DNA from: Blasia pusilla | Taxonomy: Eukaryota | DNA: 64,000 nucleotides | Direction: 5' to 3' | Assembly (NCBI GenBank): GCA_050084515.1 | Contig: CM114271.1 | Coordinates: 26,288,001-26,352,000 of the forward strand | Shown here: one piece after another, positions 6,231 to 48,012 of the stretch | Layout: the number at the start of each line of letters is the position of its first letter | Numbering within the stretch: position 1 is the first letter of the stretch | The notes under the pieces: model-generated | Databases searched by the model: none | Told to the model about the DNA's origin: nothing | The model's input: the letters and a program-made list of their open reading frames with translations, nothing else | Translations under genes and position numbers: made by a program

Positions 6231-6519
6231 CCTTCTCTATTAGGAGCGTCAGAACTATGATAAGGGTTGCTCTTTTCTTAATTAGGAGATAAAATATAAT
6301 ATTGTGAAAAAGGATAAGATAATTCTTTCAGCATAATGTGTACGCCCATCGTGCTGATCTTGAGGTGCCAATGTGTGCGTACCATGTTGATTATAACATC
6401 TTTTCTCTTACAAGGAGAAACACATAATTGCAACACAAATCTTACATGTCTCATTGACGTATAAGTGTTGTTGGAATTACCCCATGGGCTTACAAGTATC
6501 ATATTCACGAGAAAGACCC

Positions 6520-7010
6520 TGTCACGATTGTTATGATAGATCGGTGAGATCTAGCAGAGCGTCTGCACGAGTTGTGGATGATAGGCCTAGGAGGTCAAGG
6601 ATGACTTGTTGAGGCCCCGAGAAACCTGACAGAGTAGGTTTCCCCTTCGTTTCGGCTCATTTGCAGCCATATAGATAAACTTACTATTTCGGGTAAGTTT
6701 CCATATTTGGGAAAGTTGACTTTCCACTTTGGGAAGTGGCCCTTGACCCGCTACAGTAGGTCAAGATCCAAGGAGGTGACCTGCAAACATACGCTACCGT
6801 TGAGAGGGCTTGGGAGAGGGAAGGGGGTATACCTCATTCTCTTTTTGTTAAACCTCTTGGCATAAGGGAGCGGAGCTATGGTCCCTTGCTTTGTGAGTGT
6901 AACCCAAGTCTCTCATTAGGAGAGTGGGTTTGGTTTGACATGAGAGAGAGAGTGCACACCTTTGAGAGCTATGGTGTGAGATGGTGTAGAGAGACATTGG
7001 ATCTTACTTT
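6520..7010 (+). repeat. Terminal repeat A1 of copy 1 (~490 bp)
   Basis: Direct repeat of 16111-16624; homology stops after ggatcttacttt. Contains a TATA-like motif (catatagataaac) and short hairpins. Confidence 0.92.
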
Positions 7011-8552
7011 ACAAAGAGAGAATGAGAGAGTGAGAGAGCTTCATGGGGGAGCTTGCAAGTCACTCGCTGTTTTTTCAGGTTGGGGACTGCGTTCCCCCCT
7101 CAGAGGCTCATGGGAGTGCTCACCGGAGCAAGGGCAACTTTGATTGTTCTTTGCATTTGCCGATTTTCATGTGGAAGAGGGGCGCGCGGAAGTGCTGCCC
7201 AATTTCTGATAGGGATTGATTATGGGGGCGGGTTACCCCATGCCGGTGCTCTTGGGAGCACCATGTAGCTTGGTGATTTGTATTTTTATAGGTTTTATAT
7301 TTTTTTTGGGAGAAATCAATGCGGAAGCGCTGCCAAATTTTGTGTAGGAGAAAGAGACATTGGGCTTTACAACAGTCCGTGTCAATTTTTACTGGAATGT
7401 TCAATTTAAAATATTTTTTAACTTTGTCGTAAGTTATGAACGTTGTGCAATAAACAAGGAGCAATTTGGAGTTGCGAGCAAAAAGTGATGGTCAATCTTG
7501 CAAAATTGCCATTGTTATGCGTTTTTTAGGGTTAAGTTGTTCAAACCCTAAACTAGCCGCCATGCCGCCGGCGGTCGTCGCCATCATAGTCAACGCCAAC
7601 GGTCCACCCTTGATGGTCAACCGTCACCATCAATGTTCAACCATCAACGTCAATGGTCCACCGTCCGTTGTTCATCCTTTGGTTGCCATTGCCGCCGTTA
7701 CGGAGTGGAGGGCGTTTACACGACGTTCGTTGATTCTCTAACTTGCGTCGCCACCATATACTTTATTTTGGCCACCACCCTCATCAACCTGTGGTGGCAG
7801 ATGACCTCTGGTTATGGTGTTTCAGTTATGATTTCATGCTGCTATGTTGTGATTGGTAGCCACTCGACGACGATTGAGTGTCGTGTTGTGACGCCCGTAG
7901 CCGCAACGCTTCGCCAATTGCCGTGTTGTGCCGCTCGTGGCTGCACCGCACCATCTTGATCAAAGAGCACACCATCATTGCGGATCTGAGTGTGGGTTAA
8001 TTGTTGATTGAGGAGGGTATGCCGCCGAGTGCCGCATCCCACCATCGAGGGCCGTGCCGTTCGTAGTCGTTCCGTGTCGTCTGCAACGCCGCACCGTTCC
8101 GTTGGAACCGCACTATTTATCGAGGAGTTTTGAGCAGCGTCAATACGGGAGGAGTTGTCTCCATGGCCGAGTTGGGGTCGAGGTTTTTTGTTGTTGAGGA
8201 GGGACATCGACATGTGTTCAGGTTACCCATTCTGGTCCTTTACCATGCACGTGTGAGGGATTTTGGGATTTGGGTAGTTTATTTGGGGATATTGGGTGTG
8301 TGGATGGTGAGAGCATCATTAATTTATGTGGTTTAGGGGACATAGACCTATGTGGGATTTATGGAGTTGAGGGTATGTTGTCGATGAGATGATAGCCTTG
8401 TCGATTTGTCGGACACGCCACTTGTTGCCGCACGTTACACATCTCGGGGAGGGAGAGTGTAGATGGAGTGCCGCATGTTTGGGATGACTGATTGATGGAT
8501 TACTCACGAGGCGAGAGGGGCACAAGGGTCATCACGGCGTCCATTCGAGACT

Positions 8553-10033
8553 TTGAGAGGCGAGGTGCTGAACCTCGAGAGTAGCTCTAGAGATTTTACG
8601 CGGATTGGCGCGAGGTTCCGAGGGTCTCCACGTGAGGGACCACCTCAACCCCCTTATGTGTCATCATCACATGAGGGGGAGGATATAGAGGATTTTGTGA
8701 GCACACTGCCACATATTGCGAGTGCCACATATTGGGCGTACGAGATGGAAGACCGGGGTAGAGGACCGCGTAGGTTTTCAAGTGCAATAAGTACGATTGA
8801 GTTACACGATTTCATACCAGAGTTTAGGAGTTGGTGTGACTCCCAACGGGCCAAGAACTCTAGAGAGTTCAACCCATTTACAACATGGAACGGTATGTTC
8901 CACCATTTAGAGGGGGCACCCATGGACGATTACCATGAGTTCTCTCAGAGATATGCACGTGAGATCGAGGCGTGGAGGCTCTACTATGACCCACATTGTG
9001 TGTCATGGACGGAGCCATTCCCAGATGAGGAGGAGGAGTCAAGAGAGGCTACTTCCTCTTCCACAAGTGAGGTTTTAGGAGGGGTCACTCGCACGGGAGC
9101 AGTTGAACCGTGTCGTCGGGTTCGTCCTAGGTTCAACCATGTGGTTGATTTCTTTGGTGAGTTGAGGGCGAGCTACCAGGGGGTACGAACAGAGAATTTG
9201 CAGAGCATCCATGACTTCCAGAGGCTCCTGGCCGAGAGTTTGCGTGAGGCTTACACTTTCTAGCGCCGATTGATCAACGTCACTCAAGGTATGCAGAGGC
9301 TCGGGCTATCCAATCATGATACGCGATGTTGGACCGGACCCTGCGGACACGAGTGCGGGAGGGGGTGCTTCTTATGAACACCTCCCCTATGTTGAGAGAT
9401 GTTCTTAGGATCGCCGAGAACATTGAGCGCAACATGGCGGAGGAGAGCATAACCACCATGGGTTCTGGGCAAGAGAACTCGCGATTGATTGCACCACTTG
9501 TGCAGCAACGTCGAGTCCGAGATAGGCCGACTGTGGCACCACGAGCTAAGGGAGGATACCCGGAGGCCGTGCCATAGAGACCAGCGCCTTCATATGCGGC
9601 TTAGCAGCAGCCACCTACTATCACTTGTTGGTCATGTGGTGGAGCCATCATCAACACGATTGCACTCGTTAGGGTTATGGACGTGTGCCTCAACATGGAG
9701 GAGGAGATGGTGCTGCACCCGGAGGTTATCAGTGTGACTATTGTCAGAGGTATGGTCATACACATGCCAGGTGTTTCTGTTTACATCCTGAGTTACGTCC
9801 GGACCGAGGGCCAGAGACAGCACCAAAGCAAGTAGCCGGTCCGGGTGGGCCTTAAGATCGTGCACCAAGTGGTGTCGTTGGGGGACAAGGAGCTGGAGTT
9901 TCCCGACACGGTGGTGGAGCTACCCGTGGAGGAGGTAGAGTCCTACCACCTAGACGCGTCGAGGGAGATGCAAAACATGATGCTAGGATGGCTACTCAGA
10001 TACATTAGCTACAGGAGCAGATTGGCACTATAA
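8553..10033 (+). pseudogene. Gag region of copy 1 (capsid-like segment plus two zinc knuckles)
   Basis: ORFs 8553-9263 and 9326-9577 (SIHDFQR..ESLREAYT). CCHC knuckle GYQCDYCQRYGHTHARC at ~9722-9772. A second, upstream knuckle reads WACGGAYHKRNC in copy 2. Confidence 0.8.
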
Positions 10034-10619
10034 CATTGCGATTACCCGATGCCAGATCCGTGGCATCGACATCATATGGAGCAGCCAAAGATATGGAGGA
10101 TCCTGGTTGGATGTGCGGGGTTGCTTAGATGGAGGCAGCCGTAGTTGTGACGCGTGGAGCAGCCACAGAGTTGGATCCACAGTAAGGGAAAGCCAGGAAA
10201 CACACTAGGTTTCCTCAGTCTTTCACGTTGTCAGAGGCGATGAGAACCCCATCGATGGGTCCTGATCAGAGTTCCTGGAGTGTTGGTGATGTTGTTGGTG
10301 TGCAGGCACAAAGGGCGATGGGAGAAGCGAGTGCAACGACTCCTATTGTTGATGCTCAGGAGGGGCATGTGTCAAGCACATTGTTGGGGGCGGCCACCAT
10401 TGTGTACCGCTGTCCTTTATTTTCTGCTTCCGATGTTATGACGTTGGGGGGTAAGCCCGCCAAGGCTTATCGGCTGGCCACTACGCTATATGAGCATAGA
10501 GTTGGATTTCCTGCATAACGTTCAGAGGTGATTGCAGAGGAGGTGATGGACCTGCCCTTGGAGCGGATGCTTGGGCTGTCCACGTGCGATTCATGGTAGA
10601 TTGCAGTTGCTAGGATGGG

Positions 10620-11100
10620 GAGATGCCCGCTAGACCCGCAATAGAGCATGCCATGGCTTCCCCTGGTGTTGTGTTGTTGGATAACAAAGAAGAGGTCTTC
10701 CTATTGGTGAGTCTCGGAGGTAGAGCTTTTAGGCCGCAGCGCGTCTTGTTGGATTCAGGAGCGCAATCCTTGATGTTGGGGAAAGCGTCATTCAGAGGAT
10801 TGGGCTTGACAAGAGCCGATGTGGAGCGTTGTCCATTCCGGATACACACACCCTTGGGTTGAGCGAGTACCACATAGTATATCACCCGATGGGAGGTTGT
10901 GGTGAGGATTTTCTCGGGACATCCTACAGATGAGTCCGTGGTGCGAGCCAAGGCGATAGTGACTGATGTAGAGTCCTAGGACATCTTGGTTGGTGGAGTA
11001 GTGTTATACCTGATGGGGTTTTCCTTGGATTACTGGGAGGAGTCAGCGTCCTTCAAACCAAGATGGCAGTGAGGTGATGGGCGCCTTAGCTGATTACCTG
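10620..11100 (+). pseudogene. Retroviral-type aspartic protease of copy 1
   Basis: RVLLDSGAQSLMLG with DSG at 10752-10760; downstream DILVG flap-like motif at ~10980. Confidence 0.85.
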
Positions 11101-11459
11101 TTCGATTCACAAGTGCAGTGATCAAGCGACGGCCAGTAGAGGTTGCAACCTTAGCACCATTAAGCACTGCCATCACTTGGCCTAGTGAGGACATGTCCAT
11201 GCAGAGGATACGCCCGTTCTTGACATTTCTATGGAGAGGAGTGTTATGATAGTTGCATCATTCCGTGGAGAAGAGATGCCATTGTGAGGCTCGATCTGAG
11301 AAGCTTCGACGATTGGCAGAGGAGCACCTGCAGACCATATGGAGCGAGGCATTTGCACCATAGCATGATAGGTCTAAGAAACCCGAGGTAGTTGGGAGTG
11401 CTACAATGATACCCTTGGATACCACACCTATTGTGTGGTGTATATCGAAGAAGGGTGTT

Positions 11460-12400
11460 CGAGTGTTAGATCTCTTTGGAGGGAATAGCACCGGGTTAGC
11501 TGTTGTTTTGTAGACAAGAGTGCGAGTGCAGGAGTACGTGTATGTGGAGAGTGATGATGTTGTGAGGCGCGTCTCAATACAACATGTGGCACAATTACGC
11601 CTACGTTTTCTTGACTTATTGTTTGTGTCTGCGGTGTTGGGATACAAGAGTTCCCTACCAAAGGATATTTCGTTGGTAGGGGCGTAGGACTTAGAGCAGG
11701 TAGGGACCATTGATTTGGTCATTTTCGGTTGGCCATGTGAGGGCCAATTGAGTGTTGGACAAGGCAGCGGGTTGGTTGACACTCAGTCCAGGTTGTTTTG
11801 GGAGATGTCGAAAGATTTTACGGTAGTTGCAGGAGCACATGTCTCGTTCTCCAGCCTACATTATGGAGAATGTGCCGATCTTAGGAGACTCGAGGTCACG
11901 CATGGTGACGAGTGCTCATCTAGTGCGTGCCTAAATTGGCCGTGCAGTGTTCTTGGATGCAACGAGTGTAGATTCTAGAGCCCATCGCCCGTGTCTATGG
12001 TGGACCAACTTGGTGCCCCATGCGCTGTTACGAAGGGCGTATGCGAGAGTGGAGCGCCCCTCCCATTTGTTAATGGATTCCATTCTGAATCCAGGTCGTC
12101 GATCACAGGTAGTGAGGCACGATGATCGACCAATGTTGACTGTGGTTAACAGGGTAGGTAGGCGGGGCAGCCTTGCCCACGTTTGTGAGTTTTCCCGCTT
12201 CCTATACATACAAGGAGGTCGGTCTTGGCTTGGTTTGGGATGACCAGGTTCAACGGTTGATGGACCCCAATGCCAACAAGAGAGAGCGAGCGATGGGATT
12301 TCCCACAAGAGTGACAGCAGTACCTTCAGTGTCAAAGGCATCATGACGCCATGTCTTGGGTCATGCGATGGACCTGAACTGTTTGACATGGATCCTTAGC
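11460..12400 (+). pseudogene. DNMT3-like C5 cytosine DNA methyltransferase domain inside the retrotransposon polyprotein (copy 1)
   Basis: Motifs in canonical order: I RVLDLFGGNSTGL (11460); II YVYVESD; III PKDIS; IV GTIDLVIFGWPCEG (PC at 11733-11738); V SRLFWE; VI YIMENVP (ENV 11866-11874); VIII DATSVDSRAHRPCLWWTNL; IX RERAMGFP; X RHVLGHAMD. Contains stops and a frameshift. Confidence 0.93.
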
Positions 12401-12839
12401 TGTTGAGCAACGCCGTATGAGATCACGACAGATCACAATGGTTGCGTTAGTGAGCCCCATGCCTACCGAGACGGTGGAGGCAGTGGCTGGGGGCGAGACT
12501 CGAGGAGACCTACACACCAGGGGAGATTGGGAGAGACACCCTTGGACTTCTTGGGATGTTTTCCAGGTACGCCAGAAGTTGATAGCCACATCATCGAGCG
12601 TGGTTCAGGGCACTGCATGTGAAGGAGATCAGAGTTTGCAATTGGTTGTAGGAGAGTGGCCAGGTGTTGTTGTTCGAGACGGGGTTGCACCATAGCAACC
12701 ACCGATACACTACGGTGGACAGTCCTATCGTAGTCATCATGAAGACTTGGGAGCCAGATATGGTCCCTAAGTTAACAGGAGGAGAGCGGCGCTGAATACA
12801 TCAATTCCTCTTAATTTATAGGAGTTGCTTTGCGCTTAG

Positions 12840-14140
12840 CATGGAGGATCTGGGAACGTTGAAGGGATCGGGGATCCGCATTGAGTTGTGGAGTGATACG
12901 CCGATCTTTCTGACGACCCTACTTATATAGTGATATGGAGAGGGCTCTGATTCAGAGTAGGAGCCAAGACTTGGTCGGAGCTAAACTAGTGGAGATGTCG
13001 CATGGGGAGTATGCATCTGCCACTGTCATGCCCGCCAATAAGGATGTGCATGGCAACAGGACGGATAGGCGGATGTGTGGGGGTTACTGACCTATCAATT
13101 GGCAGACGAAGTCCAATAGGTATGCCATGCCCACCCTTGAGGAGATCTTTGATGCAATTGGTCATGCAAAGGTCTTCAGTTCATTGGATTTGCGAGTCGG
13201 ATACCATCAGCTGCCTATTAGATTGGAGGACAGGCATAAGTGGACATTTTGGGGCATCGATCCTCACGGGAAGGATTGTTTGTATGAATGGTGGTTCTTA
13301 CCCTTTGGGTTAAAGAACGCCCTGGCTGAGCTTCAGAGGGTCATGGATAGGATCTTGGCTGGTCTGGATTTTCCTAGGTATGATATTGATGACATTGTAG
13401 CCTTTAGCGCCACGGTTGAGGAGCATGAGCGACATCTAGAGGAGGTGTTTCGATGATTGCAATTACAAGGCAAGTGCAAGTTCTTCTACGACCAGATTGA
13501 GTATTTGGATCATACGATATACCCAAGGAGGCCTTGGTATCTCACACACTCCACGCCCTACAGATATGAGCCATGTTCGCGCATTCATGGGATTGGCGAA
13601 CTTCTATCTGCGGTACGTCAAGGGATTCAATTCGATTGCGCAGCCGCTAACCTTGCTGACGAAGGTGGATCACGAGTGGCACTAGGGGGATGAGCAAGAG
13701 TGAGCATTTCAATTGCTAAAGGAGAGGTTGACGTCCGCGCCCATCTTGAGGAGACCGATCAGGGGGCGTCCTTTTCAGTTGCACACAGATTGGAGCATGT
13801 TGGGGCTTGGAGCGGTGCTCGCCTAGCATGATGATGAGGGTAGAGAGTTCATGGTGGCTTACGCTAGCCGCTCGAACAATGTTGCAGAGGCAAAGTACAA
13901 CTCGTATGAGGGTGAGTGCTTGGCTACAGTGTGGGGTGTCGCGCATTTCAGGTGTTACTTATTCCACAACCCCTTTACCATCATCATTGATCATCAACTA
14001 CATAAGTGGTTGATGGAGTCCGAAAAATTTATAGGGAAGCTTGCGAGATGGGCTCTGTTGTTGTAGGAGTATGATTTTTAGGTGGTACATAGACTTAGGA
14101 CGCTCAACCAAGATGCAAATGGGTAGAGTCGTAATTCATG
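12840..14140 (+). pseudogene. Gypsy reverse transcriptase and RNase H of copy 1
   Basis: AKVFSSLDLRVGYHQ, LPFGLKNA, YDIDDIVAF (~13380); VRAFMGLANFY; RNase H FQLHTDWSMLGLGAVL, VAYASRS, YEGECLA, KLARWALLL. Confidence 0.95.
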
Positions 14141-14329
14141 CCCAAGTCAACGAGATGCAACTGGATTTTAATGGCATGGAGAGAATGATGAGGAGTCAGT
14201 GCCAGGATGGCATGCATCAACCTATTTAGGCATGTTGGCTATGGAGAGCCAGAGTGTGGAGACTTCGATGGCGAGGTCTTGCGGAGAGTCCTTGGATCCC
14301 GAGGCCAGTGAGGAGACGACAAGTGGCCG

Positions 14330-15600
14330 AGATATTCATGATGATGGAGAAGTGTTGGAGTACCTTCGTACTAGCAGCGTTGCGAGCACCGTGGATGCTA
14401 GAGAGCAGGATTGGATCCTACAGCGGGCCTTACGGTTCTGTTGGGAGGGGACACATGTTTTGAGGGTTTGGGAGGATGGTAGAGTATATGTAGTGCCACA
14501 TCCTTTGCATAGAGTACGACTTTTGCAGCATGCCTACGAGGAGTTGGGTCACTTTGGAATGAAGCGGACGTACAGCTTCCTCCAGATTCAGTATTGGTGG
14601 CGAGGCATGCATACTGACGTTCAGTAGTTTGTTGTTAGGTGCATGGTGTGTTATCGGGTCCGAGCATCATTCAATGCTCTGACTCCACAATTGAATCCAT
14701 TCCCAATGATGGGCTTAGGGTATAGACAAAGTTTGGATTTTGCATAACCTTTGCCTTTGACGGAGCGTCACAGTAGTTATGTGTTGGTGATGGTCAAGCA
14801 CTTCTCGAAGTGGATCAAGTTGGTTACATTGCTTGACAAAGCGAGTGAGGGAGTAGCTTATGCCTTCCTTGATAGAGTGAAGAGTCATTATGGTGCACCG
14901 TTTGAGCTGTTGACAGACCATGGTACCGAGTTTCGCGGTGAGTTCCAAGCCTTGTGTCATCAGGCGTTGATCGACCACCGCACGACTTTGGGAGATCATC
15001 CTGAGGCGGATGGATTAGCGGAGAGAGTTGTGCAGAAGATGAAGAGGGGTTTACGTAAGTATGGCTTGCAAAGAGGTTACCTAGGAGATTGGGACCTCTA
15101 GTTGCCGTGGTTGGCGATGGGATACAAATTCAGCAGGCAGGCATCCTTAGCATCTTTTTCACCGTACTTGCTACTTTATGGCCGAGAGACAGATTTACCT
15201 TCAGCCATTCGTCGAGATGCTGGTGAGGTGCTGGACCTTGATGACCCCGATGTATGGATGCGAGCATGTTCTCAGAGGGTTGAGTTATTTCGGAGAGAGA
15301 TGCCCATGGCGTTTGAGAACTTGGAAATTACGCAACATCGAGATATGTTGAGGTATGCCACTATTTGGGATGGTGGTTATTGACCAACTATCTGGAGGTT
15401 TCATCAGGGAGATTATGTCTACTTGTAGCAAACGGCAGTGATGATGTTGGATGTGACTGCATGGCGCACTATCTTGAGAGTGTGTGACGTTTTGCCATCC
15501 GATGTTCTCTTGTCGCAGGGACGTGATGGTATAGTATGGAAGGACCATGTGCGTAATTGTGCGCCATGTCATTTTCCTAACATTGATGGTATAGTAGATC
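14330..15600 (+). pseudogene. DDE integrase of copy 1
   Basis: HAYEELGHFG...YWWRGM (Zn-binding region), HFSKWI, LTDHGTEF, HPEADGLAERVVQ, SPYLLLYGR. Confidence 0.93.
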
Positions 15601-15624
15601 CGAGCTAAATACTAGTTTCTGCAG

Positions 15625-15790
15625 GCTTGCGTTATATGTTGTGTGGTTCTGCTCGTGGTGCCATCCCAAATAGTGGCTGACCTCCCACCACGATGCTAGT
15701 CTGTGATGGATGTTCGAGAGGCTGGCATATGGCATGTCTGACGCCACCACTCACTAGGGTTCCCCGGGGACGATGGATGTGTCCTTGATG
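15625..15790 (+). pseudogene. C-terminal PHD finger fused to the integrase (copy 1)
   Basis: YMLCGS...[32 protein letters not shown] matches the C4HC3 pattern; the first Cys is not intact in any copy and this copy has a short insertion. Confidence 0.88.
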
Positions 15791-15985
15791 TATATAGAGG
15801 AGATACTAGGTAGGTTTTGATTCGATATTTTTATGTGACACGGATGACAGGAATGCGACTAACGATGGGGCCACATGAGCACCACGTCTTTCTGCTCTTT
15901 GCGTCCTAGAGATGTATGTCGTGGTAGGTAGGGATAGATGGCTATTTGGAGTTAGAGGGACCTAACCACTAGCCAAGGGGGATTG

Positions 15986-16108
15986 GAGATATTTTGGTAC
16001 TTCTCGCCTCTATGTATGGAGGCCATGAGTTAGCATGGAATCGTGTGTGTTTGTGTGTGTGTTCGATTAGACGATGTATGTTGTGTAGCGATGTGTATGC
16101 GTACGACA
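15986..16108 (+). repeat. Repeat B1 of copy 1 (~120 bp)
   Basis: gagatattttggtacttctcgcctc...gcgtacgaca; direct repeat of 16630-16747. Confidence 0.92.
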
Positions 16109-16110
16109 TG

Positions 16111-16624
16111 TGTCACAACTATTAGGATAAATCGGTCGGATCTAGCAGAGTGTCTGCATGAGTAGTGGAGGACAGGCCCAAGAGGTCGAGGATGACTTGT
16201 TGATGCCTCGGGAAACCTGAGAGAGCATGTTTCCCCTTTGTTTCGGCTCATTTGGAGCCATATATATAAACTTACTATTTCGGGTAAGTTCCCATGTTTG
16301 AGATAGTTGACTTTACAATTTGGGAAGTGGCCCTTGACCCACTATAGTAGGTCAAGAGCCAAGGAGGTGACCTATGAACATAGGTTACCGTTGAGAGGTC
16401 TTGGGAGAGGGAAGGGGATATACCTCTAAGAGAGATAAAGCTTGAGAGCTCATTCTCTTTTTGTTGAACCTCTTGGCATAAGGAGGCGGAGTTATGGTCC
16501 CTTGCCTTGTGAGTGTAACCCAAGCCTCTCATTAGGAGAGTAGGTTTGGTTTGACATGAGAGAGAGTGCACACCTTTGAGAGCTATGGTGTGAGATGGTG
16601 TAGAGAGAGATTGGATCTTACTTT
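16111..16624 (+). repeat. Repeat A2 of copy 1
   Basis: Starts TGTCAC; colinear with 6520-7010 and carries an extra ~24 bp that A1 lacks. Confidence 0.92.
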
Positions 16625-16629
16625 AATTC

Positions 16630-16747
16630 GAGATATTTTGGTACTTCTCGCCTCTCTGTATGGATGCCATGAGTTAACATGGAATCGTGTGTGTTTGTGT
16701 TCGATGACAACGATGTATGTTGTGTAGCGATGTGTATGTGCACGATA
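16630..16747 (+). repeat. Repeat B2 of copy 1 (right terminus)
   Basis: Second copy of B, followed directly by the TSD ACCC. Confidence 0.9.
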
Positions 16748-18982
16748 ACCCATCTCTTATATGTAACTAGATAAGTCAAGTTGCTATTTAAGGGGATCAA
16801 TGCTATATCATTATATTGTACGTGTTTAAATCTACGATATGTATTCATGATATTTCAAACATGTTGGAGAGTTGAAGGCACTCTTCACGAGGATGGGTAA
16901 GGATTGAGAGTTGTACATACTAAGAAAATATCACAAGTAGCTTGAATACTATTCATTGATGCTAACCTTGAACATCAAAATAAGAAGTTGAATTCCAACA
17001 TGCAAGGATGGATGTTGAAGTAACTTTGTTAATGGTATGTTTATCAAACATGTGTGCAAGTACTCTATGTATTATTTTCAACATTCCTTATTATGAAAGG
17101 ATGTTTTAAAATGCATTACAGTCATTCATAATCAAAACGAATATATGAAAATATATTTCTCTATTGATAGTTTTTATGGCTTGCAATGCTTATATCTACC
17201 TTGGAATACATGGTACTACATATCTCTATGCATCCATGTTTGGATAACCCACACAAAAGGATTTTTGCACTTGAGATAGGAATGCAAACATCTCATCTCC
17301 ATTGTGGTCATGTTTAAAAGAAATTGGTGTCAACTCATGTAATGCATCACTTGTCACATGGAGTCAACAAAAATAAGCGTTTGAGTAGAACATGATATGA
17401 CCCATATTGCAAAATGGTGCACCAAAAGGAAAACAAATCAAGCTCCATGGGGGAATTTTACAATGTTTGTGTGACCCTCGTAACTAAACACACACCAACG
17501 TGGAACACGAAAACTCTATTGGACTCACAGTGAGATCGAAACATATCAAAGTCGTACGGGGAAGACATGAGTCTAACTCAAAGGAGGTTGCATCCTAGTT
17601 GGGAATCTGCCTGTCGTTCGAGGTGCTTTCCACATTGAAGTCATATGACCTCTACATAATTAAGACGTAGTTGAGATGAAGAAAGTTGGGTTTGAAATTT
17701 TGCAAAAGTCAGTGCTCCTATAACAAAGTTCCAAAGTATCAAACAAAAATAAGTCAAAGTAAGGGATCACAATTACATGAATTATAGTTTGGATTGGGGA
17801 CCAAGGATAGGAGGGGAAGATCTGAGAGGGAGTTTGGAGCAAGCATGAATCACATCTAAATTGGAAACATTGCGAGTTGATATATTTTTTCCTCACATAA
17901 GACCACATGATCCACAACTTTTAACAATTAATGTCCGTAGAGCACAATATATTCACATTTCATATTTGCATAAAGGTTTTGGTTGGAGAGCTACTATTAT
18001 AAAATTTTCTATCTTCAATAGGGAGCCCTCCTGCTTGAGGTGTATTTATATTTTACTTAAACTTATCTCTATTATAATAAGATTCCACATTGTATTTTTC
18101 GTATTTGTGCTTGCTCAAACAATAAAATCCGTTCCACTGCATTGTCTCCTCATTGGGATATCTATCCTTGTTCACTAATTCCTTATATATCTAGTTGCTC
18201 TATCTCACAGTTCTACTCATACTCCTAGTTGCTAAGACAATACTCCCTTTAAAGCATGATATTCCTTGTTTCCAACATGTTAACACCTAGTTTGCTATTG
18301 GATCAAGTTTGTGAGTTGGACCTTATATCTATTAAAGTAGTTTTTTATGAGATAAAATTTATAAGAATGTATCATCTCACTACTATTCCTTTGTTGAATC
18401 TAATCATGCGTGAGACATCCCAACTCAATAGATCAAGATATGCTTACTTCCTTTGGTTTATCGGCATCCGACGTTACTCACATCTTTGTAGATCTAGTGT
18501 TACTTACGAGCCCCGCCTATCAAAAACCACTTTAGATGCCTCTAAGCACGGTATCACTTTTGACACTTTTGTATCAAGTATCTCAGAAAATTTATAGTCC
18601 CTCTCTCTCGATCCATGGATTTTTTCTATTTTATAAATCATGTTTAATATGGTTCAATGTATCAAGAGTCAAGTTTTTTTATTAGTTTCAAAGTGGTAGC
18701 TTTTCTCAATCTTATGCATGCATTCTAATTGGTGCTTAGCCCCAACTTATGTCATGGATTCCAAAGCTCATAAAACTTACACAAGGAAAAATAGAAGATG
18801 TTATATCAATATGTTTATAATGCTTGATTTTATCTCATGTCCCTTGCCTACCGACATGTCCTTTCTACTTTATGTTTCTTGACTTATTCTTCTTGTATAC
18901 GATATCCAAGCCTTTGTTTCTTTTAATTACAAAAAGGTATAGTCTCTTTTCAAAGATTGGAAAATACAAGGAATAGCCCATC

Positions 18983-22900: not shown

Positions 22901-23900
22901 ATCTTAAACTAAATCTATACCAAGCAAGGAGGATATTGATCGGTTAAGAATTTATGAAGAGATTTGAATGGAACAAGTGAAAGAAATCAAGGCTCGAGAA
23001 GTCGTCATCTTTGGTAGTGTTGAATGTTTTCTTTGGTAAGTGTAAATATGTGGGTTGGTTTGCTAGACCCATAGATCCTTGAAAGCAATTCCCATAGTTA
23101 CTTGTGATCTACCCACTCTAATTGCATGTTTTGCTCCTTGTTGCATTATGAAGTTAGAAAAAATGTATACCTTGTGCTAGGAGAAAAAAGGTGGTTTTTA
23201 CTTGGTCGAGTGAGAGAAGGTACCTCTAAAGAATATGGGAGGAAGGTTGGCAACATCTTTCAATTTTTTTGTAGAGTTGGAATTTTACTTTGGCTCAAGT
23301 CTTGACCCACATCTCGACATGATAGACAAAAAAAAGGACATGTAGGAAAAAGTACATGAATAGTATCCCTCCCATAGTCCTTCGCATCATCCACGGGTAT
23401 TTTTTTTGTCCACCCATGTGTGCATTTTCTTTCCATCTTCTATTAGGAATGGTCATCCTCTCGAGGTTGGGAGTTGTCGGAGCCCTGCTGATGTTTATTA
23501 TCTAAACTTGATTCTTAGATAGACGAGGTCAAACAATGCAAAAGGATAGATTGAAACCTCGTTGCAAAAAAATGCCAAATGGTTATAAAAAAACAAATTA
23601 AAATACTTATGATCCATGCCTCAATGATTTGGATTTGCGAACACATAGTAATATGGACTTGGCATGCATCAAAGTTGATAAATAATATCCGACGAGTATG
23701 GCTATAGTGACCAACAATATGAACGAATCCTACATATATGTTGGTGTGCCAAAATTGGATGTTAAATTCTCAAGAGGAAGATAGGTCAACTCTTGAAAAC
23801 CAAATTAGTATTCAATGAATGCATATTGAGTAAGGGAAGGGATAGAACCAAGAGTCCCTTTCCAGCCTAAGGCCAAGGGTCTCCAATTGCAAAGGATGAT

Positions 23901-24100
23901 TGTTACGTATATTAGGATAGATAGACGAGACCTAGTATGGCACCTTTGAGGATAGTGGAGGATAGTCTCAATAGGTCAAGGATGACCTCCTAAGATGTCT
24001 CGATATTTGGATGCTATGAGTTATCATGGGATCTTGTGTGTTTGTGTGTGTATTCGATGACAACGAGGTATTTTGTATAGCAATGTATATGCGTATGATG
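23901..24100 (+). mobile_element. Internally deleted solo A+B unit of the DNMT-Gypsy family with a 4-bp TSD
   Basis: First ~88 bp match the A start (tgttacgtatattaggatagat...ggtcaaggatgac); the rest matches B (...gcgtatgatg). TGAT flanks both sides (23897-23900, 24101-24104). Confidence 0.85.
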
Positions 24101-26024
24101 TGATAGATTATTGAATGTTTGAATAAGAGAAGTTTAAGGTAGAGAAAATTATCAAGTCTCCATCATTCATTGTAAATTGGAACTACAACAAATGAGGAGG
24201 CTTAGAGGGGTTTGTTGTAAGCCATGAGCTTAAAACTAAATTCATATATTAGTTAAAGTAAATACATTTATTTAAACATGGTTCTCTATATTTTAATATC
24301 CCAAATGTGTATTCTAATTATCAATCTTTTTCAAATCCACCTACTAATCATGTTTTCATCATTTTTGGAATATGATGACATTATATCGTAGGCAATAGGA
24401 GTGTTTTAATATCGAAAGGCTCTCAAAAGAGTAAATGCATTAGCATGAGCCTCCATGAACAAAATTCATGAAGGCTTCAAGAATGAGCATAGCAAGAACC
24501 ATACAAAGATCAAAACTGATTTTGGTGTTCATATCTTTGTTGCTTGCCACTTGACCTTGAGTGGGCTATTTTTGAATGAGGGAAATTAATCAAGGCTCCT
24601 GAGTAAACTTAATGAGGTGGAAAATGGTTAAAGGGATGCGCACTATGAAGGCATGAATAGAAACACATAAAATGGCACGAGTTATGAATATGCATGCAGG
24701 CATGGTGTCAAAGTTGTCCAAAGAAGAAAGAGATCCTCCACTATGTGTATCAAGCATTTTGGATTTGGTCCCAAAGTCAAGGCTCTAGAGAGCAAGGTTT
24801 CTTTACATTTTTTACGTCTATTTTTTCATTTTAATGGAGTAAATTCAATCCATTCAAATGCTTGTACGTCTGATTAGAACCCATTACAATGGGTAATGGG
24901 TTCTAATTGATGGGTTAGAACCACTCAAACGTACTTCAAGTTGATGGAAATATATAGAGGGTTGTTTGGTACATTCTCTGCATGAATGTCTTGGCATATC
25001 ATTATTGCTTCACATTTCAGAGCCCTATATAATATGAAGACTAATGAAACCAAAATTTGAAGTATTTTTTATCGCTCTTGATTTAAAGGTATTGATTTAG
25101 AAGACTTTGCATCATGCTTTTCATTTGGGCCATAAATTGGAGGAATTAGCGAATGTAACTACTCAAGGTTTGCATAATTTCCTTTGTTATAATCATGTCA
25201 CCTTCAAGCTATTATATCCTCCTCCATTAGTTATGATTTAAAAAATAAATGTATGTAGAAAATGTATTGTAAGACTTTGAGTCCTCATTGAAAACTAAGG
25301 AAAAGTCTAACCCACTTAAGTTTCGAGAACATTTAAACTTTGGGTGGAAAGAACAAGTTTCACAAAAACTATATACCTTTTGGCATGATGAGAGTGGACC
25401 TAGAGGATACCACCCAACAAGAACCTCTATTATGGGAGGCCAATCAAAATAATCATCCTCGCCTAGAAAACTTGGAGATGTAGTTGGGTACTTTATCATT
25501 TGGCTTGAACGAAACTTGTAGAGGTTGATTTAATAGGTAGTATAAATGATGCTTCTCGAGATCCCATGGTAAATTGATAAGAGTAAGGTTAAACAAGATG
25601 ATGGTTTTCTTCATATGAATAGTTTTGTGCATTTCTTTCCTATACATTATGTTTTGGGTGTTGCATTTTGCTGTCAATGACTTGATAGACAATGGTCTCG
25701 TACATAGAAGATAGTCACTTTTTGATAAACTATGATATTTTCAACTTCAATTTAATCACCCTTCATTCACTCCTGCATGTAAATGTTGTAATTTTTTGCC
25801 CACTATTTTGCACGTATGGATTCATAGCCAATATACAAGTCCCATAATCTACAAATATAAATGACTAATATGTGTTTTGCAATAACTACCATGGCAGTGT
25901 AAATAACTTACATAGTCACAATAGACAACACTATACACGACTCGTGCGTAACACATATAATGACAAAAGTAGTTGACAACAGCGACAAAATGACTATAGA
26001 ATGACTTAGAGTGTAATTTATTAT

Positions 26025-34029: not shown

Positions 34030-37000
34030 TCGGATATACCAGAGTTGAGGATGGTTTTTCGATGAGACGATAGATAAGTTGATTTGCCGCACCACGCGGC
34101 TTGTTGTTGCACAACACACGTCTTAGTGAGAGAGTGTAGATTGAGTGACGCCTGTTCAGTTTGAGTGATTGAGTGATTACTTGCGAGGTTGAGAGTGATT
34201 GTGTGAGAGGGGCATGAAGGTCATCACGGTATCCTTTCAGGACTTTGAGAGGCGAGGTTGTGGACCTAAGAGTAGCTCTAGAGGATTTACCCGGAGTGGT
34301 GCGAGGTTTTGAGAGTCTCCACATGAGAGACCACCTCGATCTCTGTATGTGTCATCTTCAGACGACGGGGAGAGTGTAGAGGAGTGCGTTTGTGATTTGC
34401 AACACATATTGAGTGGTCCTACCAGTTGGGCGTATGAAAAAGACGACCGCGTAGGTTTTCAGGTGTTATAGGCACTCTTGAGTAACACGACTTCATTGCA
34501 GCGTTTAGGAGTTGGTGTGACTCACAACGAGTTTGGACCTATAGAGAGTTCAACCCGTTTAGAGCATGTTCTTGCATTTGGAGGGGGCGCCCATGGATGA
34601 TTACCATGAGTTCTCTCACATATATGCCCAGGAGATCGAGGCATGACGACTCTAATATGAACCATACTATCTGTCATGGACAAAGCCATTCCTAGATGAG
34701 GATAAGTCAGGAGAGGCTACTTCCTCTTTCATCCATGACGTTTTATGAGGGATAACTTGCACTGGAGCAGTTGCACTGTCCAATCAAGTTTTTCCAAGGT
34801 TCAACCCTGTGGTTGAGTTATTTGGTGAGAACTTGCGGAGCATCCACGACTTCTAAAGGTGTCCGGAAGAAAGTTAGCTTGAGGCCTACACTCGCTTACA
34901 CCGGTTAATTAACATCACTCAGGTAGTGACAGAGTCCTAGACTATCCATAAATGGTACGTGATCCTGGACCGGACTCTACGAAGACCTCTCCGAGAGGGG
35001 ATGCTTCTTATGAATACCTCCCCTATGTTGAGAGATTTGTTTAGGACCGTTGACAACATTGAGCACAATATGGTAGAGGAGAGTGTAGCCACCATGAGTT
35101 ATGGGTGAGAGCAGCCATGAGTATCTGCACCACAAATGCAACAACGTGAATTCCAAGATAGGTCCGTGGATATTGGGCGGCCCTGCCATAGAGCTCAAGG
35201 AGGATACAGGGAGGCTGTGCCACAGAGACCTTCGCCCTCATATGCGGCTAAGTTTTTGCTGCCTACGATTATTTTTTGGGCATGTGGTGGAGCCTATCAC
35301 AAGCGTAATTGCACTCGTCAGGGTGATGGACGCGTGCCTCAACCTGGAGGAGGAGATGGTGCTACACTAGGAGATTATCAGTATGACTATTGTCAGAGGT
35401 ACTGTCACACATGCGCCAGGTGTTTCAACTTACACCCTGAGTTACGTCGAGACCGATGGCCAGAGAGGATACCAGAGCGAGTTGCCATCGAGATGGGCCT
35501 AGAGGTCGTGCACCATGTGGTCCCGTTGGGGGACAAGGAGGTGGAGTTGTCCGAGGGGGTGGTGTAATTGCCCATGGAGGAGGTAGAGTTAAACCGCTAA
35601 GACGCAACGAGGGGGACATCAGGCGTGAGGAAAGGATGGCTGCTCATATACAACAGCTAAAGTAGCAGATTACTGCTCTAGTATTGAGGTTACTAGGTGC
35701 CGAATCCGTGGCATCGACGTCTTATGGAGCAGCCGGAGATATGGAGGATCTTGGCAAGATGTGTGGGGTTGCCAAGATGGAGGCTTCCGCAGTTCTTACA
35801 TGTGGAGCAGCCGTAGAGTTTGGTCCACAGTGAGGGAAAGCCTGGAAAAAGACTTGGCTTCCTGAGTCCTTCACGTTGTTTGATGAGATGAGGACTCCAT
35901 CGATGGGTCCTGATCAAAGATCTCGCAGAGTTGGTGATGTTGTTGGTATGCATGTAGGGAGGGCAATAGGAGAAGGAGGTGCAACGACTCCTATTCCTGA
36001 TGCTCAAGAGGAGCATGTGTCGAACACGTTGATGGGGGTCGCCACGATGGTGTACTGTGCTCCTTTATTTTCTTCTTCCGATGTTATGACATTGGAAGGT
36101 ACGCCCACCAAACTTTTCCGGTTGGCCGCTATGCTATGTGAGCGTGGTGTTGGTATTCTTACGTCCCTCTCAAGGATGATTGGAAAGGAGGTGATGGACC
36201 TGCCCTTGGAGCGTATGCTCAGGTTGTTCGCGTCAAATTCATGGTGGGTTGCGTTTGCTAGGATGGCGGAGATGCCCGCTAGACCCACAATAGAGCATGC
36301 TATGGATTCTTCTTGTGTTGTATGGCTGGATAACCAGGGAGAGGTCTTCATGTTGGTGAGTCCAAGAGGTAGAGTTTTTAGACCGTAGGACGTCTTGTTG
36401 GATTTTCTTTTTAGAGCGCAACCCCTGATGTTGGGGAAAGCGACATTAAGAGGATTGGGCTTGTCGAGAGCTGATGTCGAGCGTTGTCCTTTCCTCATAC
36501 AGACATCCTTGGGTGGAGTGACTACCACATACTATATCACCCGACATGAGGTCGTGGTGAGGATTATCTCGAGACGTCCTACAAATGAGTCTATGGTGCA
36601 AGCCAAGGCGATAGTGACCGATGCCGAGTCCTTTGACGTCTTGGTTGATGAAGTAGTATTATACCGGATGGGGTTTTATGTGGATTATTGGGACGAGTCA
36701 ACATCCTACAGACAAGTATGGCAGTCAGGTGATGGGCGCCTTAGCCTATTGCCCCTTTCATTCATCCGTTGAGTGATCAAGCAATGGCCAGGAGAGATGG
36801 CGACCTTAGGAGCATTTAGCAGCGCAATCACTTGGCCTAGTGATTTGATTGAGGGATATGCCCTTATAGAGTACACTCATGTTCGTGACATTTCTATGGA
36901 GAGGAGTGTCATCGTAGCCGCATCATTCCACGGAGGAAAGGTGTTGCTTTGGGGCTCAACTGCACGAGCTTCGACGCTTAGCCGTTGAGCATGTCCAGAC

Positions 37001-37728: not shown

Positions 37729-37849
37729 AATTTTCGTATAGTAAAATCATCCAGTGTGTAAACTCCTGTCTCTTTCAATATTAGATAGATTTTTATTAGT
37801 ATCAAGTAAAATAGCTCAAAAAAAAGGAAATTCCCATGTTTAAACCTCT

Positions 37850-47865: not shown

Positions 47866-48012
47866 CTATGTACATCTGGGACACATCCATTGTTCCTGAG
47901 GAATCCTAGTGAGAGGTGGCATCAAACATACCATATGCCATCCTCTCGAACATCCATCATAGACTAGCATAGTGGCTGCACCACGGGCGGAACCACACAA
48001 CATACCCTGCAA
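47866..48012 (-). pseudogene. PHD finger of copy 3
   Basis: ORF 47866-48195 ends [46 protein letters not shown]. Confidence 0.88.

What the first reader, a model, noticed from the sequence alone, without database searches (positions are those of the whole stretch)
6520..16747. Split direct repeats (A...B-A-B) instead of LTRs on a DDE-integrase Gypsy element
Seen: the left end has only A (6520-7010), while the right end is B1 (15986-16108), A2 (16111-16624), B2 (16630-16747). A 4-bp duplication ACCC flanks the A1 start and B2 end, so this is the integrated unit. Copy 2 has the same B-A-B end (44174-44844), and copy 3 has A1 alone at its 5' end and B1-A2 at its 3' end. No TGG-type tRNA primer site follows A1; a GA-rich tract does. 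Known: A...B-A-B split repeats typify tyrosine-recombinase retroelements (PAT, TOC1, Ngaro), which lack DDE integrase and normally make no such TSD, whereas Gypsy elements have two equal LTRs. Inference: a hybrid replication mode, possibly tRNA-independent. LTR finders would mis-delimit these elements.
Basis: partly seen in the sequence, partly recalled or inferred. Interest (0 to 1): 0.9.

Follow-up and report, generated by a model that had tools for sequence, protein, structure and literature searches.

The report
Gypsy retrotransposon with split terminal repeats
A very abundant, decayed liverwort-type Gypsy retrotransposon really does carry A…B-A-B split repeats instead of two equal LTRs, but this odd layout was already noted once for its algal relatives that also encode a DNA methyltransferase.

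Summary
Copy 1 is ACCC | A1 6520-7011 | internal | B1 15982-16108 | TG | A2 16111-16625 | B2 16626-16747 | ACCC. In the window, 2 of 2 readable 5' ends have A alone. 2 of 2 complete 3' ends have B-A-B. A deleted solo A·B unit (23901-24100) has its own 4-bp duplication (TGAT). Whole-genome reads show the family is about 1.4% of reads, that B's end abuts many different flanks, and that the A-end|B-start joint is common.

One is a Dnmt3-like cytosine methyltransferase between protease and RT. The other is a PHD finger after the integrase. No tyrosine recombinase was found. An intact, distant relative has the same PPT-B-(GACA nn TGTCAC)-A layout. A young copy of that family has a B-A-B 3' end with identical B copies.

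de Mendoza et al. 2018 state that the Klebsormidium KnitGypsy-Dnmt3 element has DIRS-type repeats with Gypsy domains. This is therefore a new member of a known kind.

My reading is that RT signals define a B·A LTR, while the integrase ends are A-start and B-end. That implies integration from a joined-ends intermediate, probably a 2-LTR circle. This route is inferred, not shown.

The parts
6516..6519 (+). left target-site duplication ACCC of copy 1
6520..7011 (+). A1, starts TGTCAC; the only repeat at the 5' end of copy 1
6833..6847 (+). segment inside A complementary to the 15 nt that follow A1 (one G·U); candidate 5' end of the RNA and self-primer. Copy 1's A1 has a 25-nt deletion just upstream of it
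7012..7026 (+). primer-binding-site candidate (GA-rich, not tRNA-like), directly after A1
8496..9260 (+). longest open frame (255 aa), probably gag
   Evidence: only a sub-threshold Retrotrans_gag match, through homolog P0141
10620..12394 (+). decayed protease and Dnmt3-like C5 cytosine methyltransferase region (FxGxG, GWPC[Q/E]G and ENVP motifs visible, with stops)
   Evidence: tblastn against L001 ORF1; Pfam and PDB matches on L001
12745..15791 (+). decayed pol: RT (Pfam 13091-13453), RNase H (13827-14063), integrase H2C2 (within 14172-14624), rve DDE core (14748-15098), PHD finger (15681-15785)
15975..15981 (+). polypurine tract (AAGGGGG) directly before B1
   Evidence: the same CTAGGGGG-type tract precedes B in copy 2, L001 and L005
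15982..16108 (+). B1, GT-rich, ends ...GACA
16109..16110 (+). 2-nt spacer (TG) between B-end GACA and A-start TGTCAC: an internal copy of the joined element termini
   Evidence: spacers are AC (copy 2), GT (copy 3) and GC (L001, L005)
16111..16625 (+). A2
16626..16747 (+). B2, the right end of the integrated unit
   Evidence: loose ends at B's end
16748..16751 (+). right target-site duplication ACCC
23897..24104 (+). solo A·B unit with an internal deletion (23901-24100), flanked by TGAT/TGAT
34030..44844 (+). copy 2: 5' end missing, foreign insertion at about 37729-42545, 3' end B1 44180-44280 / AC / A2 44283-44733 / B2 44734-44844
47104..57098 (-). copy 3: A1 57098-56561 alone at the 5' end, primer-site candidate 56560-56545, B1 47685-47575 / GT / A2 from 47572, truncated near 47104-47116

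Best explanation
What it is. These are three old, decayed copies and one solo unit of a very abundant Ty3/gypsy-type retrotransposon of the streptophyte 'Gypsy-DNMT3' kind. The gene order is gag, protease, Dnmt3-like cytosine methyltransferase, RT, RNase H, DDE integrase, PHD finger. The host is probably a liverwort. Its termini are true split direct repeats: A - internal - B-nn-A-B.

How it most likely works (inferred). The RNA starts inside A1, about 30 nt after a TATA-like motif. Its first bases pair with the sequence directly after A1 and prime minus-strand synthesis (Tf1-like self-priming, no tRNA). Plus-strand synthesis starts at the G-rich polypurine tract directly before B1. Reverse transcription therefore makes an ordinary linear cDNA with B·A LTRs at both ends.

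The sites of the DDE integrase are not at those cDNA ends. They are TGTCA... at A-start and ...GACA at B-end, which abut inside each LTR as GACA-nn-TGTCAC. Integration therefore needs a molecule in which cDNA end A is joined to cDNA start B, most simply a 2-LTR circle. The integrase then opens that molecule at the B|A junction next to the primer site and inserts it with a 4-bp staggered cut. The result is A-int-B-A-B with TG...CA ends and a 4-bp duplication. B1-nn-A2 is then the internal copy of the joined termini, and A2|B2 is the fossil circle junction.

My odds: about 0.85 that the identity and the A-start/B-end integration by the DDE integrase are right. About 0.4 that the joined-ends (circle) route is right.
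For: Shown:
- The split repeats hold at 2 of 2 readable 5' ends and 2 of 2 complete 3' ends, and B1-A2 at 3 of 3.
- A 4-bp duplication is present at 2 of 2 testable units: ACCC for copy 1, and TGAT for the solo A·B unit.
- In copy 1, A1/A2 and B1/B2 are equally diverged (K2P 0.106 and 0.125).
- Family level: 1263 reads run from B's end into unlike AT-rich sequence. 183 DNA reads and 5 RNA reads show the A-end|B-start joint. Among the 15 joints listed (498 not shown), none runs from B-end to the internal start.
- Domains: RVT_1, RT_RNaseH, Integrase_H2C2 and rve in 4 of 20 ORF pieces of copy 1. PHD is present in all 3 copies. The protease-DNMT region is found by tblastn in all 3 copies.
- Intact relative L001 (about 56% amino-acid identity in pol to copy 1). 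ORF1 carries PF00145 (E 6.8e-12). ORF2 is RT-RH-IN-PHD. There is no tyrosine recombinase. Its best solved relatives are DNMT3A/3B/3C.
- L001's non-coding DNA does not align with the window's. It nevertheless has CTAGGGGGGG, then about 109 nt of GT-rich B, then ...CGACA GC TGTCACG.
- L005 is a second contig of the same assembly and family. It reads pol end - PPT - B1 - GC - A2 (360 nt) - B2 - unrelated flank, with B1 = B2 at 106 of 106 bases.
- Self-priming signal. In L001, the 13 nt directly after the A end (as placed by L005's A|B joint) are a perfect complement of a segment inside A, 176 nt upstream (0 of 2000 shuffles reach 13). Copy 1 has 10 nt exact (15 with one G·U; 9 of 2000). Copy 3 has 10 nt (27 of 2000). 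The fold of copy 3 forms that pairing. A TATA-like motif lies 28-31 nt before that segment in L001, L005 and 4 of 5 window A copies.

From the literature:
- The same repeat layout on a Gypsy-DNMT3 element of Klebsormidium (PMC5890265, section 9 and figure legends read).
- Retroviral integrases can cleave palindromic LTR-LTR junctions of 2-LTR circles (PMC1905944, PMC1180852, PMC4372172; search listing only).
Against: - No circular or linear extrachromosomal DNA was examined, so the circle step is pure inference.
- A 2-LTR circle carries two identical B|A junctions. Random opening should give as many A-B-A-int-B insertions as A-int-B-A-B ones, and 1-LTR circles should give A-int-B. All 4 informative 3' ends seen (copies 1, 2 and 3, and L005) are of the A-int-B-A(-B) type. 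This hints at a directed process that the model does not explain.
- RNA reads cross the A|B joint (5 reads). The joint could therefore be copied from RNA rather than made by end-joining.
- The transcription start and poly(A) site were not mapped. No pile of read starts was reported at the predicted start (table 6).
- The fold of copy 1 pairs the CT-rich segment with another GA run instead. GA/CT low complexity inflates chance complementarity in the window family.
- Loose ends at A-start were not among the 6 rows listed for run X16, so the 5' terminus rests on 2 window copies plus the solo unit.
- Only two families were examined. No Klebsormidium sequence was on hand for direct comparison.
Confidence: 0.6

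Rival explanations
1. Reverse transcriptase itself builds a linear A-int-B-A-B cDNA, with no circle. It would do so through extra template switches on an RNA that reads from A1 through A2 into B2. The internal B1-nn-A2 would serve, as in the DIRS/PAT/Ngaro models, to restore the missing outer ends. The DDE integrase would then insert this linear DNA in the usual way.
For: - 5 sense RNA reads cross the A2|B2 joint, roughly in proportion to the DNA reads (183) given the RNA-to-DNA depth ratio.
- All 4 informative 3' ends are of one permutation type, as a deterministic process would give.
- The internal copy of the joined termini is the defining idea of the DIRS model (PMC7192593, passages read).
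Against: - There is no polypurine tract at B's 3' end to start a plus strand at A-start.
- There is no primer-site candidate after B that is conserved between the two families.
- The signals that are conserved (PPT before B, self-complementary site after A) sit exactly at B-start and A-end. Those are the ends of a B·A LTR.
- The scheme needs at least three template switches and repeated use of already-copied RNA.
Confidence: 0.25
2. This is a DIRS-like element in mechanism. Integration is by a tyrosine recombinase, encoded elsewhere or supplied in trans, acting on a circle. The DDE integrase would be a relic.
For: The A-int-B-A-B layout is otherwise known from tyrosine-recombinase elements (PMC3783388 and PMC7192593, passages read).
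Against: - No Phage_integrase match in either long ORF of the intact relative L001. L001 has no other ORF above 163 aa.
- None in the 20 ORF pieces of copy 1.
- The integrase-PHD frame is intact in L001 and L005.
- TG...CA termini with 4-bp duplications at 2 of 2 testable units are the signature of DDE integration.
Confidence: 0.03
3. The layout is accidental or secondary. Under this reading these are ordinary two-LTR elements that were truncated, recombined into tandem forms, nested in a solo LTR, or mis-assembled.
For: - The copies are old (K2P 0.1-0.2 between repeat pairs).
- Copies 2 and 3 are each damaged at one end.
- Complex LTR arrays do arise by unequal recombination (general knowledge).
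Against: - The same layout occurs in three copies that are only 75-78% identical to each other, in a solo unit with its own duplication, in raw reads of an independent run, and in a young copy of a different family from another assembly with identical B copies.
- It is also reported in print for Klebsormidium.
- The A and B pairs are equally diverged.
Confidence: 0.03

Closest known systems
KnitGypsy-Dnmt3 of Klebsormidium nitens (de Mendoza et al. 2018, Nat Commun 9:1341; 'Gypsy-DNMT3' of streptophytes in bioRxiv 10.64898/2026.05.21.726589)
   Same: Gypsy domain set, with a Dnmt3-like C5 methyltransferase inside the polyprotein. Repeat structure 'the same as that of a DIRS retrotransposon', i.e. 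A-coding-B-A-B. The window copies and their intact relative L001 show both features.
   Different: - The host is liverwort-like rather than a charophyte alga, and copy number is far higher (about 1.4% of WGS reads).
- The passages I read do not mention the C-terminal PHD finger, the 4-bp duplication, the GACA-nn-TGTCAC junction, the PPT, or the self-complementary primer site.
- I had no K. nitens sequence, and the paper's supplements were closed, so direct kinship is untested.
Tyrosine-recombinase retroelements with split direct repeats (PAT-like, Ngaro, TOC1, SymbioDIRS-Dnmt3)
   Same: A1-internal-B1-A2-B2 order, with an internal copy of the joined termini. Some also carry a methyltransferase.
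   Different: Here there is a DDE integrase and no tyrosine recombinase. The termini are TG...CA with a 4-bp target duplication. A PPT and a primer site sit at LTR-like positions. The RT is of Ty3/gypsy type.
Tf1/sushi-type self-priming LTR retrotransposons
   Same: There is no tRNA site. The sequence just downstream of the 5' repeat is complementary to a sequence derived from the repeat (definition quoted in PMC2864245, passage read). This is seen here in two families.
   Different: The start of the RNA was not mapped here. Tf1 has two equal LTRs.
Cleavage of palindromic LTR-LTR junctions of 2-LTR circles by retroviral integrases, and the abutted-end circle junctions of IS3/IS911-type DDE transposons
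   Same: A DDE enzyme opens a junction of two element ends separated by a few bases and uses the ends for insertion. The GACA-nn-TGTCAC site has that form. The retroviral papers were seen as a search listing only.
   Different: In retroviruses the junction is formed by the cDNA ends themselves, and the circle route is minor at best. Here the site lies 106-127 bp inside the RT-defined LTR, so a joined form would be obligatory. The IS911 comparison is recalled from memory, not read.

Membership tests
Ty3/gypsy (Metaviridae-type) LTR retrotransposon | pol order RT - RNase H - DDE integrase (rve) with an H2C2 zinc domain | tested here: met
   Pfam on ORF pieces of copy 1. Full set in relatives P0022 and L001.
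Ty3/gypsy (Metaviridae-type) LTR retrotransposon | two equal long terminal repeats at the ends of the integrated element | tested here: not met
   The 5' end has A only and the 3' end has B-A-B.
Ty3/gypsy (Metaviridae-type) LTR retrotransposon | TG...CA termini and a short (4-6 bp) target-site duplication | tested here: met
   TGTCAC...GACA termini. ACCC and TGAT duplications at 2 of 2 testable units.
Ty3/gypsy (Metaviridae-type) LTR retrotransposon | polypurine tract before the 3' repeat and a primer-binding site after the 5' repeat | tested here: inconclusive
   A G-rich PPT lies directly before B1 in 2 of 3 window copies (copy 3's is mutated to CTAGGAGCGCG), and in L001 and L005. There is no tRNA-type site. 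A self-complementary site follows A. No host tRNA set was on hand; the window has 0 tRNA genes.
Streptophyte Gypsy-DNMT3 (KnitGypsy-Dnmt3 kind) | Dnmt3-like C5 cytosine methyltransferase inside the gag-pol coding region | tested here: met
   L001 ORF1 matches PF00145 (E 6.8e-12). Its best PDB relatives are DNMT3A/B/C. The homologous but stop-ridden region is present in all 3 window copies.
Streptophyte Gypsy-DNMT3 (KnitGypsy-Dnmt3 kind) | DIRS-type repeat order A-coding-B-A-B | tested here: met
   Window copies and L005. Definition taken from PMC5890265 figure legends.
Streptophyte Gypsy-DNMT3 (KnitGypsy-Dnmt3 kind) | sequence kinship with the Klebsormidium elements | not testable with these tools
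   No K. nitens sequence could be fetched. Named relatives found were Marchantia, Calypogeia and Closterium.
DIRS order (DIRS1, PAT-like, Ngaro, TOC1) | tyrosine recombinase instead of a DDE integrase | tested here: not met
   No Phage_integrase match in L001 ORF1 or ORF2 or in the window pieces. rve is present.
DIRS order (DIRS1, PAT-like, Ngaro, TOC1) | split direct repeats or ITR plus an internal copy of the joined termini | tested here: met
   B1-nn-A2 equals B-end plus A-start.
Self-priming (Tf1-like) retrotransposons | the first bases of the transcript are complementary to the site directly after the 5' repeat | tested here: inconclusive
   Complementarity was found in two families, and a TATA-like motif lies 28-31 nt upstream. 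The RNA 5' end was not mapped (one search gave no start pile there).

The most novel reading that the evidence does not exclude
In this clade, an ancient streptophyte lineage reaching from charophyte algae to liverworts, the linear cDNA made by reverse transcription is not the integration substrate. The DDE integrase recognises only an abutted-ends site (GACA-nn-TGTCAC) buried 106-127 bp inside the LTR. A joined-ends molecule, such as a 2-LTR circle or a head-to-tail concatemer, would then be an obligatory intermediate, opened at one specific junction. That would be a natural retroelement living by the long-discarded 'circle as integration precursor' route. It would also be a mechanistic bridge between retroviral integrases and IS3/IS911-type copy-out-paste-in transposases, and a convergent solution with tyrosine-recombinase retroelements.
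Probability: 0.35. Interest if true: 0.8.

Novelty: new member of a known kind. Interest (0 to 1): 0.55.

Why it matters
- **Annotation.** LTR finders that pair A1 with A2 will cut off B2 and misplace the target duplication. They will also misdate and misclassify a family that makes up about 1.4% of this genome's reads. The element's methyltransferase and PHD finger are likewise easy to miss.
- **Mechanism.** The one published remark on this layout is a figure legend, and I found no mechanistic treatment. The anatomy worked out here turns the curiosity into testable predictions about how a DDE integrase can maintain split repeats. That anatomy is RT signals at B-start and A-end, and integrase signals at A-start and B-end joined internally with a 2-nt spacer.
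- **Material for experiments.** Intact, apparently young relatives exist (L001, L005, and Marchantia gene models).

Tried and rejected
- **Collection scans.** The viral-contig scan gave 59 pattern matches, none a relative. The genome-contig scan gave 1 locus.
- **Other integrase matches.** Five further matches in the same assembly were only 23-31% identical and were not followed.
- **The look-up of sequencing runs**: no RNA holder listed. All indexed holders had small shares (0.19 or less).
- **Pfam.** No match for 16 of 20 ORF pieces of copy 1. No match for 5 of 6 homologs of the 255-aa frame; the sixth, P0141, gave only a sub-threshold Retrotrans_gag match.
- **RNA genes.** No tRNA genes and no Rfam family in the window. 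The primer site could not be compared with host tRNAs.
- **Fold of copy 1** did not show the proposed primer pairing, and its z-score was only -1.8.
- **Other complementarity.** Searches around the B1|A2 junction, before B1 and at the B2 end found only scattered 9-mers. I rejected a primer site after B and a plus-strand primer at B's end.
- **Models considered and rejected.** A canonical A·B LTR: 5' ends lack B, and B1 abuts A2. A canonical B·A LTR as the integrated form: flanks and duplications sit at A-start and B-end, and the solo unit is A·B. An A-only LTR: B2 lies inside the duplication. 'int' as an intron of an A·B LTR: no splice-site-like boundaries.
- **L001 alone** cannot tell the layouts apart. 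It is a collapsed, circular-looking assembly with a 127-nt overlap.
- **Literature searches** for split or permuted LTRs found nothing further. Two searches on liverwort LTR elements and the Tat paper gave nothing on termini.

Full report
**1. The observation**

The repeat finder and BLAST confirm the layout of copy 1:
- ACCC (6516-6519)
- A1 6520-7011
- about 9 kb internal
- B1 15982-16108
- a 2-nt spacer TG
- A2 16111-16625
- B2 16626-16747
- ACCC (16748-16751)

When both boundaries are shifted by up to 3 nt, ACCC at shift 0/0 is the only 4-mer match. A1/A2 (K2P 0.106) and B1/B2 (0.125) are equally diverged. Both pairs therefore probably date from one event.

The window holds two more long copies, 75-78% identical to copy 1:
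- Copy 2 (plus strand, about 34030-44844) lacks its 5' end and carries a foreign insertion. It ends B1 44180-44280 / AC / A2 44283-44733 / B2 44734-44844.
- Copy 3 (minus strand) starts with A1 at 57098 with no B upstream. It has B1 47685-47575 / GT / A2 from 47572. A2 is cut off near 47104-47116, where another repeat begins.

The counts are: A alone at 2 of 2 readable 5' ends, B-A-B at 2 of 2 complete 3' ends, and B1-A2 at 3 of 3.

It is a solo A·B with an internal deletion at 23901-24100. It starts with the A-start motif, ends at the position of the B-end motif, and is flanked by TGAT on both sides. A second 4-mer match (GATG) at shift -3/-3 comes from the overlapping GATGAT/GATGTGAT context. 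TGAT is the match that fits the homologous termini.

**2. The family level**

No genome is held for the window. I therefore laid public reads of the same coded organism on window 6300-17000 at 80% or more likeness.

DNA (WGS run X16, about 1% of the run read):
- 177,884 of 12,434,590 records lie on the element (1.43%). Depth is roughly 900-3200 when both orientations are summed.
- At the end of B (place 16108), 1263 reads continue into sequence unlike the window. The consensus agreement is only 0.34 and the sequence is AT-rich. This means many different flanks, so B's end is a real terminus across the family.
- The joint from A's end to B's start ('16624 to 15982, goes back 643') is seen in 97+86 DNA reads and in one contig of run X1.
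- Among the 15 joints listed, none leads from B's end to the start of the internal region, as a canonical A·B 5' LTR would give. 498 joints were not shown, so this is weak.
- Loose ends at A-start were not among the 6 rows listed for X16 (11,275 not shown). The 5' terminus therefore rests on the window copies.

RNA (run X19):
- 7144 of 10,132,408 records lie on the element. They are strongly strand-biased in the direction expected for sense RNA.
- 1+4 RNA reads show the A-end to B-start joint.

**3. What the element is**

Pfam on 20 stop-free pieces of copy 1 gave hits in 4: RVT_1, RT_RNaseH, Integrase_H2C2 and rve. A PHD finger follows the integrase in all three copies.

The RT piece finds its best named relatives in liverworts (Calypogeia fissa, Marchantia polymorpha). 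It also finds an intact RT-RH-IN-PHD protein, P0022.

The genome-contig scan returned one locus, L001. It is a 9285-nt contig filed in a cyanobacterial bin. I take it to be a mis-binned eukaryotic contig (inference). L001 has a 127-nt identical overlap at its ends, so it is a collapsed, circular-looking assembly of one unit. It has two intact long frames:
- ORF1 (1355 aa when read across the overlap) has two CCHC knuckles (seen in the translation). It also has a weak aspartyl-protease match and a C5 cytosine methyltransferase (PF00145, E 6.8e-12). The methyltransferase's best solved relatives are DNMT3A/3B/3C (E about 6e-8).
- ORF2 is RT-RH-IN-PHD. No tyrosine recombinase is present.

tblastn shows that all three window copies carry the homologous protease-methyltransferase region. 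In copy 1 it spans 10620-12394 at 32-45% identity. The FxGxG, GWPC(Q/E)G and ENVP motifs are visible but interrupted by stops.

The longest open frame of copy 1 (8496-9260) has only 78 short homologs. One of them gives a sub-threshold Retrotrans_gag match. The frame is probably gag.

**4. An independent family has the same architecture**

L001's non-coding DNA does not align with the window's. Only three pol segments match at the DNA level. Its order is nevertheless the same: pol stop, 3' UTR, CTAGGGGGGG, about 109 nt of GT-rich sequence ending ...CGACA, spacer GC, then TGTCACG....

A second contig of the same assembly, L005 (2905 nt), is 85% identical to L001 over the first ~750 nt of the queried non-coding stretch, and 96% identical in the integrase protein. 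It reads pol end - PPT - B1 2311-2416 - GC - A2 2419-2778 - B2 2779-2884 - unrelated flank. B1 and B2 are identical at 106 of 106 bases. This is a young B-A-B 3' end in a family whose pol protein is only about 56% identical to the window's.

The spacer differs between copies and families (TG, AC, GT, GC), while GACA and TGTCAC are kept.

**5. It is already in print**

- Searches for split direct repeats returned only tyrosine-recombinase elements.
- The methyltransferase led to de Mendoza et al. 2018 (PMC5890265). I read section 9 in full and passages from other parts. The paper describes KnitGypsy-Dnmt3 of Klebsormidium nitens. The Fig. [quoted passage not shown] The Fig. 1e legend defines that arrangement as 'A-coding region-B-A-B'.
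- A 2026 preprint refers to 'streptophytes (Gypsy-DNMT3)' (passages read).
- Only these two papers hold those names in the library.
- The DNMT region of L001 also finds Marchantia, Calypogeia and Closterium proteins.
They may hold more on the termini.

The finding is therefore a new, liverwort-type and very abundant member of a known kind.

**6. Anatomy that bears on mechanism**

Two sets of boundaries have different signatures.

(a) B-start and A-end carry reverse-transcription signals.
- A G-rich polypurine tract sits directly before B1 in copies 1 and 2, in L001 and in L005. It is mutated in copy 3.
- Directly after A1 there is no tRNA-type site. Instead there is a sequence complementary to a segment inside A, about 175-180 nt upstream.
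- In L001 the A end, placed by homology to L005's A|B joint, is 7414. The next 13 nt (7415-7427) are a perfect complement of 7239-7251 (0 of 2000 shuffles reach 13).
- In copy 1, 7012-7026 pairs with 6833-6847 (10 nt exact, 15 with one G·U; 9 of 2000). In copy 3 the exact match is 10 nt (27 of 2000). The minimum-energy fold of copy 3 forms this pairing. The fold of copy 1 does not.
- A TATA-like motif lies 28-31 nt before the internal segment in L001, in L005 and in 4 of 5 window A copies. Copy 1's A1 has a 25-nt deletion there.

This is the pattern described for self-priming elements (definition in PMC2864245, passage read; the details of Tf1 are recalled from memory).

(b) A-start and B-end carry integrase signals. 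These are TGTCA... and ...GACA, that is TG...CA with a 4-5 nt inverted repeat, diverse flanks and 4-bp duplications. Inside the element the two ends abut as GACA-nn-TGTCAC.

**7. Most likely mechanism (inferred)**

Reverse transcription of an RNA that starts in A1 and includes B1-nn-A2 would give an ordinary linear cDNA, B·A-int-B·A. This uses self-priming after A1 and plus-strand priming before B1.

The ends of that cDNA lack CA/TG. The integrase sites lie 106-127 bp inside the LTR. The A2|B2 joint equals cDNA end A-end ligated to cDNA start B-start, with no extra bases. It therefore looks like a circle junction.

Opening a 2-LTR circle at the B|A junction next to the primer site gives exactly A-int-B-A-B. 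Cuts 3' of CA on both strands would leave 2-nt 5' overhangs, like processed retroviral ends. Integrases of HIV-1 and a spumavirus are reported to cut palindromic LTR-LTR junctions (PMC1905944, PMC1180852, PMC4372172; search listing only). The likeness to IS911-type circle junctions is recalled from memory.

Weak points of this model:
- Nothing extrachromosomal was examined.
- A circle has two identical junctions, and 1-LTR circles have one. A-B-A-int-B and A-int-B insertions are therefore expected, yet all 4 informative 3' ends are of one type.
- RNA reads cross the A|B joint, so the joint might instead be RNA-templated. This keeps a purely RT-based, DIRS-like restoration model alive as a rival.

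**8. Verdict**

- Observation: confirmed.
- Interpretation: partly supported. The split repeats on a DDE Gypsy element are real, and priming is probably tRNA-independent.
- Novelty: the layout is not new for this clade, and 'hybrid replication' overstates what is shown.
- Possibly new here, since I found none of it in the papers searched: the fine anatomy (RT-defined versus integrase-defined boundaries, the abutted-ends site with a 2-nt spacer, the 4-bp duplication, the self-priming signal, the PHD finger) and the presence and abundance in a liverwort-type genome.

Noticed in passing
window 28558-29534: Tandem array of about three units of a 348-349-bp repeat, 77-88% alike. It has no similarity to the Gypsy family.
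   Followed up: no
window 26970-27573: Fragment of a different Gypsy-type integrase, 32-47% identical to L001 ORF2 residues 791-990 by tblastn.
   Followed up: no
window 37729-42545 and 19111-20015: Copy 2 is interrupted by a foreign insertion of about 4.8 kb. Part of it (41507-42399) is an inverted 78%-identical match of 19111-20015. This points to another repeat family.
   Followed up: no
window 30671-31170 and 46569-47080: Inverted 75% match of a further repeat. One arm starts where copy 3's A2 is cut off, so an insertion or deletion involving this repeat probably removed copy 3's 3' end.
   Followed up: partly
window 55205-55370: Near-identical (97.7%) tandem duplication of about 80-87 nt inside copy 3. 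It is much younger than the copy itself.
   Followed up: no
window 6157-6230: 75-nt sequence that matches its own reverse complement at 93% (a palindrome), in the AT-rich flank about 290 nt upstream of copy 1.
   Followed up: no
L001 7595-7771 and 8150-8178: The 1.2-kb leader between the primer-site candidate and ORF1 of the intact relative holds 38-nt and 26-27-nt tandem repeats and a run of 28 A. The meaning of the A run is unknown.
   Followed up: no
proteins P0016, P0171, P0174, P0176, P0177 and others: Several annotated Marchantia polymorpha 'hypothetical proteins' are pieces of this kind of element (DNMT fused with RT/RNase H or CCHC). Host-gene DNMT counts in liverworts may therefore include retrotransposon copies.
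   Followed up: no
window 6001-16000 versus its flanks: The element is 45-53% G+C with a strong positive GC skew on its sense strand. The surrounding DNA is 27-30% G+C. Differences between reads and the window copy are dominated by C>T and G>A, as expected for methylated repeats.
   Followed up: partly
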